Below are positions 44,100-45,800 of a DNA stretch of 64,000 bases, piece by piece (the stretch's first letter is position 1; the number at the start of each line of letters is the position of its first letter). A program made the position numbers and the translations under genes. The stretch is taken from assembly GCF_009914755.1 (NCBI RefSeq), contig NC_060925.1. The stretch is one strand, 5' to 3'. This DNA comes from the human T2T-CHM13v2.0 reference genome, Homo sapiens. The notes under the pieces are model-generated. The model did not search any database. It was not told the origin of the DNA and saw nothing but the letters and a program-made list of their open reading frames with translations.

Positions 44100-45800
44100 T
44101 GAGGCACGCCGAGGAAGGGCAAATCAGCCTTGGCTGGGCTAAGGCTTCTGCTGGCTCCAGCCCCTCCGCGGACAGACCCTGCCCACCCAAGGGGCCGCCT
44201 GGTCTCACTTGTCCGGCTCCGAGCTGCGGAAGGCGCACGAATCCTACGGCCGGCTGGGCACCTACTGCTGCAGAGGGTTGCGCAGGCGCAGGCGTCGCCG
44301 TGGCTCCGCCGAGCCCTCAGAGTCGGGGTTGGGCCGGGCCTGGGGTCAAGGGCAGGGTTACGGCCCCCTAGGGAGACTCCGCCCCTGGCGGACCCCGCCC
44401 CACCCCTCCACATGAGACGGCGCGCGCAGGCTCAGTTCCTCGGCGTAGCACAGCGGCTCCCAGGCGCGCTCAGCTCGGCGAAGGGTGCGGCGCTATGCCG
44501 GGGTACTCTCCTGGGCTGCTCTCCCAGGAGGAGAGGGAAGGACCCCTAAGCCCCTCCCCTCACGATCTCGGCCGGGAGGTGACAGATCCCTTTTTTTGTT
44601 GTTGTTTTGTTTTTTTGAGACAACATCTCGCTGTTGCTGGAGTGCAGTGGCGCGATCTTGGCTCACCACAACTTCCGCCTCCCGGATTCAAGCGATTTTC
44701 CTGCCTCAGCCTCCCGAGTAGCTGGGACTACAGGCGTGCGCCACCACGCCCCGCTAATTTTTGTATTTTTAGTAGAGACAGGGTTTCACCATATTGGCCA
44801 GGCTGGTCTCGAACTCCTGGGCTCAGGTGATTCGTCCGCCTCGGCCTCCCAAAGTGCTGGGATTACAGGCGTGAGCCACCGCGCCCGGCCAGATCCCATT
44901 TTTCGCGTCGGTCCTTTCCGCCTTCAAAAGCGCTTTGACATGCCTTTCCTCGTTTAAATTTCAAATGAGGAAAACGAACACCTTCGTTTTTCAAACGCGG
45001 AGACAGACGCCGGGTGGGCCGCGTCGTATAGCGACTGATCTTGCTCCTTTCTTGGGCACCTCCAATGTGCCAGGTCCTGGGCTGAGCGCTTTACACCCTG
45101 CGTCCGTGTAATCGTCACAGCCCCTGCCTGGGGCTGACACTACGGCCAAATCCATTTGACAGATGAGCTGCTGAAGGCTCTTGTGCGGGTCTCAGAGCTG
45201 GCTAGGGGCGTCTGCGCTCGGCCTCGGGTCTCGCAGCCCGCCGGCTCCGTGCTCACCTCCTCCAGGTTCCGCTGAAAATTCTCGCGCCAGCGCCGCTGCC
45301 GGAGTCGCCTCTCTCCCGCCGCCGCGGGGGTCGCAGCTTCTCCTCCCAGGCGAGCACGAAGTCTAACCCATCGCGGGGTCAGGGGGACAGTTAGGAGCGG
45401 TCTGACCCCGCTCTGTCCCACTTTTATCTGGGTGGAAAAGGGGATCTGAGTCCATCAGTCCCACTAAGGCCAAAATTAAAGGAAATTTGAGTTGTAGCAA
45501 AAGGTATTAGGGTTAGTTCGAGGAAGGAACTGCCCATTGCAAGAAAATGACAAGAGACGCTGCGGGATTCCTCGGGGAGGGGAGAGGGGGTTTAAGGGAG
45601 AGCCTGTGGCCTGGCCACTCGGGCCTTCTGGGTGAGGTGGGACAAGAGTATGGGTGAGTCTGACCCAAGTCTCACCAATGCAGGTTTTCCCGTCTCAGAA
45701 AATGTACCCCTAGAGTCCGGCACATAAATGCCGCCGCAGGGCGCGAGACACAGTCGTCGTCCTGTCGGTGGCGTCATCGCCGTCTTGGTGCAGCAGGCAT
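44100..45800. promoter_or_regulatory. CpG-rich region over the 5' exons of the anoctamin pseudogene
   Basis: High CpG density at 44100-44580 and 44990-45790, split by an Alu. Confidence 0.6.
44591..44890 (-). mobile_element. CpG-rich Alu
   Basis: Antisense dimer flanked by AGATCCC(T/A)TTTTT. Confidence 0.9.

What the first reader, a model, noticed from the sequence alone, without database searches (positions are those of the whole stretch)
45676..45709. Extra upstream exon retains the ancestral F-R-D-G-K motif, killed by a likely CGA>TGA change
Seen: the minus strand reads GGG TAC ATT TTC TGA GAC GGG AAA ACC TGC ATT G|gtgag. This splices in phase to the next exon (AC TTC GTG CTC GCC TGG GAG GAG), giving GYIF*DGKTCIDFVLAWEE with TGA at 45697-45695. 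Knowledge: ANO1-6 carry YFRDG.(R/K).D(Y/F)(I/V)L here, and from recall mammalian ANO7 lacks the FRDG part. Inference: this feature could not have been copied from modern mammalian ANO7, so it is a diagnostic of ancient paralogy.
Basis: partly seen in the sequence, partly recalled or inferred. Interest (0 to 1): 0.7.

Follow-up and report, generated by a model that had tools for sequence, protein, structure and literature searches.

The report
Exon of a lost ancient anoctamin
This is a decayed, unannotated early exon of the human pseudogene ANO7L1, whose closest relatives are unbroken gene models in treeshrew, shrew, marsupials, reptiles and fish, so humans likely lost an old extra anoctamin (a membrane channel or lipid-scrambling protein) rather than carrying a broken recent copy of ANO7.

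Summary
The 34 bases are there and are a real exon end: the best of 2005 donor-like sites in the window, and 0 of 3000 simulations score as well. (1) The exon is not extra: human ANO7 has an exon ending at the same phase-1 intron; it has only lost the FxDG residues. (2) The exon is longer (likely 45783-45676). A 1-nt deletion near 45705 lies just before the TGA, so 'GY' and the AG at 45711-45710 are out-of-frame accidents. (3) CGA>TGA is the most parsimonious change, but it is one of about 20 lesions, and a TAG five codons earlier stops the frame first; nothing shows that it killed the gene. The main inference holds. Unbroken models from treeshrew and shrew match the pseudogene at 72-74% (mammalian ANO7: 49%). 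Trees put it in a clade running from lamprey to mammals, and a clade with mammalian ANO7 is rejected (p-AU 7e-5). ANO7L1 is most likely a unitary pseudogene of an ancient ANO7 paralogue. The gene is already named; I found no paper on its history.

The parts
45676..45783 (-). Full exon containing the finding (108 nt, phase 1 to phase 1); homologous to shrew residues 22-59; outside the RefSeq ANO7L1 span (33234-44420)
   Evidence: Frameshift-aware alignment to shrew P0121; score 66 against a maximum of 42 in 60 shuffles. The 3' end is firm; the 5' end (after ccaag) is likely, not proven
45733..45750 (-). Net +1 frameshift relative to shrew in the 5' half of the exon (position approximate)
   Evidence: with treeshrew as guide the break is placed differently or absorbed, so its exact site is uncertain
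45710..45712 (-). TAG in the frame entered from the acceptor: the first stop met in this exon, five codons before the TGA; its AG is not the exon's acceptor
   Evidence: translation from the acceptor; IYVPDSRG in the neighbouring frame matches relatives
45704..45705 (-). 1-nt deletion in the Asn codon of G-N-(Y/F)-F-R-D-G
   Evidence: 11 human bases where relatives need 12; deletion before the Arg codon costs 2 substitutions against 3 (protein constraint) or 1 against 4 (constraint from P0004)
45695..45697 (-). TGA at the Arg of FRDG; likely from CGA
   Evidence: 72 of 91 motif-bearing relatives have R here; P0004 read in the neighbouring frame allows only a codon starting with C and ending in A or C
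45363..45675 (-). 313-nt GT-AG phase-1 intron splitting the D codon of DFVL; same position and phase as the 4455-nt intron of human ANO7; absent from ANO1-6
45257..45362 (-). Next exon (DFVLAWEEKLRPPRR...), with a -1 frameshift at about 45318-45309; also outside the RefSeq span
44412..44545 (-). Decayed exon ending ...[10 protein letters not shown]; 5' end uncertain; one frameshift near 44464
   Evidence: its upstream intron did not match an ANO7 intron exactly
33789..44339 (-). Rest of the ANO7L1 pseudogene: 17 further aligned exon segments covering the dimerisation and anoctamin domains to the C-terminus, with stops at 44264, 44246, 43763, 43325, 35438, 35101 and ten frameshifts
   Evidence: Pfam PF16178 and PF04547 matches

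Best explanation
The stretch is the 3' end of a decayed early coding exon of the unprocessed pseudogene ANO7L1, which is likely the dead human orthologue of an anoctamin that split from ANO7 early in vertebrate history and still has unbroken gene models in treeshrew, shrew, marsupials, reptiles, amphibians and fish. Shown: the exon and its phase-1 intron match ANO7's in position; the FxDG motif is kept in the pseudogene's clade and missing from mammalian ANO7; the human copy has a 1-nt deletion before the TGA and about 20 lesions overall. Inferred: the ancestral ANO7-type gene had this intron; after duplication (likely a vertebrate genome or block duplication) the ANO7 copy evolved fast and lost FxDG in place somewhere between fish and mammals; the other copy stayed conservative, was inactivated on the primate line after the treeshrew split by an unknown first lesion, and then decayed neutrally, the CGA>TGA change being an ordinary CpG transition among the lesions. 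The living orthologues would be calcium-activated scramblases or channels of the TMEM16 type (untested); the human exon makes no protein.
For: Shrew P0121 residues 22-852 of 853 map colinearly on 45783-33789. Identity of the human read-through: 557 of 776 columns to shrew against 367 of 776 to donkey ANO7; 74% treeshrew, 68% bilby, 62% turtle, 59% gar, 55% lamprey, 49% gorilla or donkey ANO7. The 37-row tree (quick search, mixture model) nests it with shrew and treeshrew (SH-aLRT 99) inside a clade from lamprey and hagfish to mammals (98); the 17-row careful tree agrees (100/100 and 98/98), and joining it to mammalian ANO7 is rejected, p-AU 7.1e-5. A teleost protein (Gambusia P0178) groups with mammalian ANO7 (100/99), still has FRD, and cannot be joined to medaka's gene (p-AU 2.5e-5). 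16 of 19 pseudogene introns match ANO7 introns in position and phase. FxDG occurs in 83 of 97 non-TPYG relatives with the junction and in 0 of 13 mammalian ANO7 records. Rootletin-family genes lie within about 0.3-1.1 Mb of ANO7L1 on chr1 and 0.26 Mb of ANO7 on chr2; an ARHGEF19 relative lies 8.3 Mb from ANO7.
Against: No DNA of any non-human orthologous locus could be fetched, so synteny, the CGA codon and the order of lesions are inferred from proteins only. The intact status of the shrew, treeshrew and marsupial genes rests on database gene models. The human row was built by alignment to the shrew protein, which can favour that grouping slightly. The tree tool warns that the mammalian ANO7 and Gambusia long branches meet, and the root rests on distant invertebrates, so the date of the split (before lamprey, or only before bony fish) is unsure. 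At protein level alone AGA is as parsimonious as CGA, and the protein-level aligner placed the frameshift in the Arg codon itself. The first coding exon was not found.
Confidence: 0.88

Rival explanations
1. ANO7L1 is a mammal- or primate-era segmental duplicate of ANO7 that decayed; the motif would be a leftover or chance.
For: ANO7 is its nearest human paralogue (70% in the best exon; 71-83% DNA identity in six exons), and they share intron positions. The name suggests it.
Against: The clade is rejected, p-AU 7.1e-5. The pseudogene is closer to lamprey's protein (55%) than to gorilla ANO7 (49%). No intronic similarity to ANO7 outside the masked repeats was listed by blastn.
Confidence: 0.02
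2. One reading: a 34-nt extra exon, starting at the AG at 45711-45710, whose CGA>TGA change was the mutation that inactivated the gene.
For: The AG...G|GT frame reads cleanly into the next exon; CGA>TGA is the most parsimonious substitution. A nonsense change this early would inactivate the gene if it came first.
Against: Homology continues upstream in another frame. ANO7 has the matching exon. With about 20 lesions, any one has a small prior chance of being first.
Confidence: 0.05
3. The TGA is not a mutated codon: the single missing base was the C of CGA, and TGA appears only because the preceding T fills the gap.
For: The protein-level aligner chose this placement.
Against: It needs 3 substitutions against 2 under the shrew or treeshrew residues, and 4 against 1 under the P0004 constraint.
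Confidence: 0.1
4. The two paralogues arose later than the trees suggest (within bony vertebrates, not before lamprey), and fast evolution pulls ANO7 to the root.
For: Long-branch warning; no shark or lamprey protein of the TPYG type was among the 120 listed hits, though only 120 of 1428 were listed.
Against: Left out in turn, Gambusia and mammalian ANO7 each fall outside the lamprey-plus-gnathostome clade (81/98 and 96/99). This rival changes the date, not the ancient-paralogue conclusion.
Confidence: 0.3

Closest known systems
ANO7L1, anoctamin 7 like 1 (pseudogene), RefSeq transcribed pseudogene (annotation supplied with the finding)
   Same: Same locus, strand and colinear exon series; this exon splices in phase into it.
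   Different: The RefSeq span ends at 44420; the exons at 45783-45676 and 45362-45257 and most of 44545-44412 are outside it, which extends the coding relic by about 1.4 kb.
Proteins labelled 'anoctamin-7' or 'anoctamin-7-like' from Tupaia chinensis (P0128), Sorex araneus (P0121), Macrotis, Dromiciops, reptiles, amphibians, lungfish, coelacanth, sharks, ray-finned fish, lamprey, hagfish
   Same: DSRG-N-x-F-R-D-G-K-T-x-I then DFVLVWEEKLRPPRR in shrew and treeshrew; one clade with the pseudogene.
   Different: Their models are full-length open frames with the calcium-site motifs kept in those checked; the human copy has about 20 lesions and has lost one of those glutamates.
Human ANO7 (TMEM16G), chr2q37
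   Same: Nearest human paralogue; 16 of 19 introns shared, including this phase-1 intron in the D codon, with a G|gtgag donor in both.
   Different: Its homologous 58-nt exon ends GSPAKPRI, without FxDG; only 49% identity; separate clade.
ANO1-6 (TMEM16A-F), Pfam Anoct_dimer PF16178
   Same: The F-x-D-G ... D-(Y/F)-(I/V)-L motif opens the Pfam domain; mouse ANO1 aligns to treeshrew across it.
   Different: The motif lies within one exon, with no intron at the D codon.
Human unitary pseudogenes such as GULO and UOX (Zhang et al. 2010, PMC2864566; passages seen)
   Same: An established gene lost on the human line, with working orthologues elsewhere and surviving paralogues.
   Different: That survey started from mouse genes, and its main text has no mention of anoctamin, TMEM16 or ANO7 (supplements not read).

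Membership tests
Anoctamin / TMEM16 family (relic) | Anoctamin domain PF04547 and dimerisation domain PF16178 | tested here: met
   exon frames match both; E 1.2e-14 and 2.8e-7
Anoctamin / TMEM16 family (relic) | Intact frame and calcium-site acidic residues of TM6-8 (motif positions recalled from ANO1, located by pattern) | tested here: not met
   Human: 20 lesions, EYLE reads EYPG. Met in the shrew, treeshrew, bilby and monito models
ANO7 (TMEM16G) subfamily in the wide sense | Phase-1 intron in the D codon of DFVL and the ANO7 intron set | tested here: met
   16 of 19 introns exact; ANO1-6 lack this intron
Recent duplicate of mammalian ANO7 | Forms a clade with mammalian ANO7 | tested here: not met
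   p-AU 7.1e-5
Unitary pseudogene | Unprocessed (introns kept) and disabled | tested here: met
Unitary pseudogene | Intact orthologue in other species by phylogeny | tested here: met
   rests on database gene models
Unitary pseudogene | Orthologue at the syntenic position (between ARHGEF19 and CPLANE2) | not testable with these tools
   No non-human vertebrate DNA could be fetched
Unitary pseudogene | No working copy of the same orthologue elsewhere in the human genome | tested here: met
   The conserved exon has 10 matches: itself, ANO7 on chr2 and eight loci at 63% or less; the 5' region is single-copy. Counts are lower bounds
Ohnologue pair from vertebrate genome duplication | Split at the vertebrate base and paralogous neighbours on both chromosomes | tested here: inconclusive
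   Trees fit but have long branches; only two neighbour families tested; CROCC 1p36.13 and CROCC2 2q37.3 are listed in Table 1 of PMC6585022

The most novel reading that the evidence does not exclude
Vertebrates have an eleventh anoctamin lineage, the slow-evolving sister of ANO7, kept from lamprey to treeshrew and lost in primates (and probably again in another mammal line); most non-mammalian proteins labelled 'anoctamin-7' are orthologues of this dead human gene, not of the human ANO7 gene.
Probability: 0.75. Interest if true: 0.45.

Novelty: new member of a known kind. Interest (0 to 1): 0.3.

Why it matters
The exon itself is a dead fragment. Its use is as a pointer to the gene's history. 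Milenkovic et al. 2010 (PMC2974728, passages seen) count ten vertebrate anoctamin paralogues; this would be an uncounted eleventh, with no function tested in any paper I found. In the tree, 14 of the 25 named proteins that group with the pseudogene carry the plain label 'anoctamin-7', so fish, shark or lizard work under that name may concern a gene that humans lack. That matters for choosing models and for conservation scores of human ANO7 variants. It also adds a likely primate gene loss that mouse-anchored surveys could miss, and extends the annotated pseudogene by about 1.4 kb. The gene's symbol and the 'anoctamin-7-like' labels suggest that curators already know part of this.

Tried and rejected
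Alu origin of F*DG: considered because antisense Alus give it often (9 of 12 F.DG hits around ANO7 were F*DG and a tenth FLDG, all with Alu-type continuations); rejected, because the following bases differ and the profile score depends on KTxI and the donor. Hidden FxDG exon in the ANO7 intron: of the 8 candidate Ile+G|GT donors upstream of the DFVL exon, only the ...KPRI exon fits and none has FxDG. First coding exon (shrew and treeshrew residues 1-21): no match above shuffles in 45800-49000 with four queries (32-35 of 40 shuffles as good); the two mini-exons upstream of 45783 are treated as noise and were left out of all counts and trees, as were shrew positions 487-530, which align poorly. 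Two homologue searches with single exons gave one hit and none. An Atlas search with P0001 gave nothing; one with P0010 only confirmed the family. A six-frame comparison with the ANO7 locus was swamped by repeats; only its blastn part was used. One search used an ARHGEF19 exon in the wrong frame and is disregarded; one search repeated the test with another exon. The careful 37-row tree did not finish; the quick tree is quoted. 'TMEM16M' and 'ANO11' in bioRxiv 10.1101/2022.04.22.489151 name invertebrate subfamilies, not this gene (passages). A review of ANO1 (PMC8480199, passages) has no statement on the FRDG motif, so no specific role is claimed for it. No structure was predicted.

Full report
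1. The observation. Window 45709-45676 on the minus strand translates to GYIF*DGKTCI with one G left over, followed by gtgag. The next exon begins at 45362, so the junction rebuilds the D of DFVLAWEE across a 313-nt phase-1 intron. A profile of the eight residues before the junction in 91 relatives ranks this site first among 2005 G|GT sites of the window (16.9 bits; next -7.3). The best of 4710 sites in 176 kb of other human anoctamin loci scored 9.1, and 0 of 3000 Markov simulations of the upstream region reached 16.9. The exon end is real.

2. It is not an extra exon. I fetched 60 kb around human ANO7. Its DFVL exon is preceded by a 58-nt exon ending GSPAKPRI plus G|gtgag. Mapped through protein alignments, the intron has the same position and phase in both genes, as do 16 of the 19 pseudogene introns. 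In human ANO1-6 the motif and the D-(Y/F)-(I/V)-L strand lie in one exon. So the intron marks the ANO7 subfamily, and mammalian ANO7 lost the FxDG residues in place.

3. Relatives. An unnamed 140-residue record seeded a search that returned longer relatives; an alignment of four of these found 1428 proteins, of which the best 120 were listed. By a simple motif rule, 97 of the 120 are non-TPYG proteins with the junction, 13 are mammalian ANO7, one is a Gambusia protein, and 9 lack the junction. FxDG is present in 83 of the 97 (exactly FRDG in 68) and in 0 of the 13, of which 11 are primate records. Ranked by match to the window, shrew and treeshrew come first and the mammalian ANO7 records last. 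Both small mammals read DSRGNFFRDGKTKI-DFVLVWEEKLRPPRR.

4. The true anatomy of the exon. The human DNA gives IYVPDSRG in one frame and F*DGKTCI in another. A spliced, frameshift-aware alignment to the shrew protein places the exon at 45783-45676, 108 nt (0 of 60 shuffled queries score as well). Between the Gly and Asp codons the human has 11 bases where relatives need 12. The aligner put the gap in the Arg codon, but counting base changes favours a deletion before it: 2 substitutions against 3 given the shrew or treeshrew residues, where CGA and AGA tie. An unnamed mammal-like model, P0004, happens to read this stretch in the neighbouring frame, which fixes the first base of the Arg codon as C and the last as A or C; under that constraint the count is 1 against 4 and the codon is CGA. 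CGA>TGA is therefore likely but not seen directly. 'GY' and the AG at 45711-45710 are by-products of the deletion. Read from the acceptor, the frame stops at TAG 45712-45710, before the TGA.

5. The TGA is one lesion among many. Shrew residues 22-852 of 853 map on 45783-33789 with 14 frameshifts and 6 other stops (two frameshifts lie in or next to a poorly aligned stretch); 5 of 19 donors are not GT (two are GC) and one acceptor is AA. The human branch is about 0.4 changes per site against 0.07 for treeshrew. Two unnamed primate-like records share with human the reading EEEM at a donor where another mammal-like record has EVEM, which fits a shared loss of that GT; this suggests decay over tens of millions of years (inference). 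Which lesion came first cannot be told from one genome.

6. Ancient paralogy. The read-through is 74% identical to treeshrew, 68% to bilby, 62% to turtle, 59% to gar, 55% to lamprey and 49% to gorilla or donkey ANO7. It nests with shrew and treeshrew, then marsupials, reptiles, amphibians, fish and cyclostomes, roughly following the species tree, while mammalian ANO7 groups with a Gambusia protein that still has FRD. Forcing the pseudogene to join mammalian ANO7 is rejected (p-AU 7.1e-5), as is joining the Gambusia copy to medaka's gene (p-AU 2.5e-5). The split is therefore at least as old as bony vertebrates and perhaps older than the lamprey divergence; long branches make the older date unsure. 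Neighbour families fit a block duplication without proving it: rootletin-family hits lie near both genes (CROCC and CROCC2 in Table 1 of PMC6585022, passages seen) and an ARHGEF19 relative lies 8.3 Mb from ANO7. Only these two families were tested. Synteny of the non-human genes could not be checked.

7. How it most likely worked. The treeshrew protein aligns over its length to solved ANO1 and ANO6 (E 2e-186 and 4e-165), and the shrew, treeshrew and marsupial models keep the TM6-8 acidic motifs, one glutamate of which the human copy has lost (their role as calcium ligands is recalled). A review lists ANO7 among the scramblases (PMC8480199, passage seen). The living gene is thus predicted to encode a calcium-activated scramblase or channel; this is untested. 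The motif opens the Pfam dimerisation domain; I found no statement of its specific role.

8. What is known. The pseudogene is named and annotated, but its RefSeq span stops at 44420. In the library searched, 'ANO7L1' occurs in 4 papers, once each, whose titles concern expression or association studies (listing only). Searches for old or guessed symbols (symbols recalled), anoctamin with 'unitary pseudogene' (0 papers), 'anoctamin-7-like' with gene loss, ANO7 with treeshrew and family evolution showed no paper on its history. Milenkovic et al. 2010 state ten paralogues in vertebrates (PMC2974728, passages). Zhang et al. 2010 do not mention anoctamins in the main text (PMC2864566, passages). Supplements were not read, subscription papers are mostly missing, and gene databases could not be consulted, so unitary status may already be recorded there.

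9. Verdict. Observation partly confirmed, interpretation partly supported. A real but dead exon of a known pseudogene. The useful result is the likely ancient, separately inherited anoctamin lineage behind it. Interest 0.3.

Noticed in passing
window 42544-42717 (-): A 57-bp unit in 3.1 copies (96% match) repeats the 3' end of an ANO7L1 exon with its donor region (HHWDCSDFQDQE...), an internal tandem amplification.
   Followed up: no
G000:C2:241695505-241695512 (L012, L043): The human ANO7 acceptor before DFVL is a tandem CAGCAG; database records show both RIDFVL and RIADFVL forms.
   Followed up: partly
P0058, P0004, P0042, P0003 (unnamed records): Mammal-like models of the same gene with their own damage (DWK for DGK, out-of-frame stretches, altered conserved motifs); the gene may have been lost in a second mammal line. 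Their grouping with human may be long-branch attraction.
   Followed up: partly
P0178 (Gambusia affinis, 1511 aa): One gene model that seems to fuse two neighbouring copies of the ANO7-proper type; the first copy keeps FRD before the junction.
   Followed up: partly
P0014 (unnamed, 198 aa): A divergent fragment with the TPYG motif of ANO7 proper, unlike the mammalian records; possibly a bird or reptile ANO7. Not placed in a tree.
   Followed up: no
window 37700-38090 (-): The exons for shrew residues about 490-535 align poorly or are missing, next to an Alu-like sequence at about 37860-38010; a deletion or insertion may have removed them.
   Followed up: no
P0132, P0153 (bilby, monito del monte): Marsupial orthologues have FRDR in place of FRDG.
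   Followed up: no
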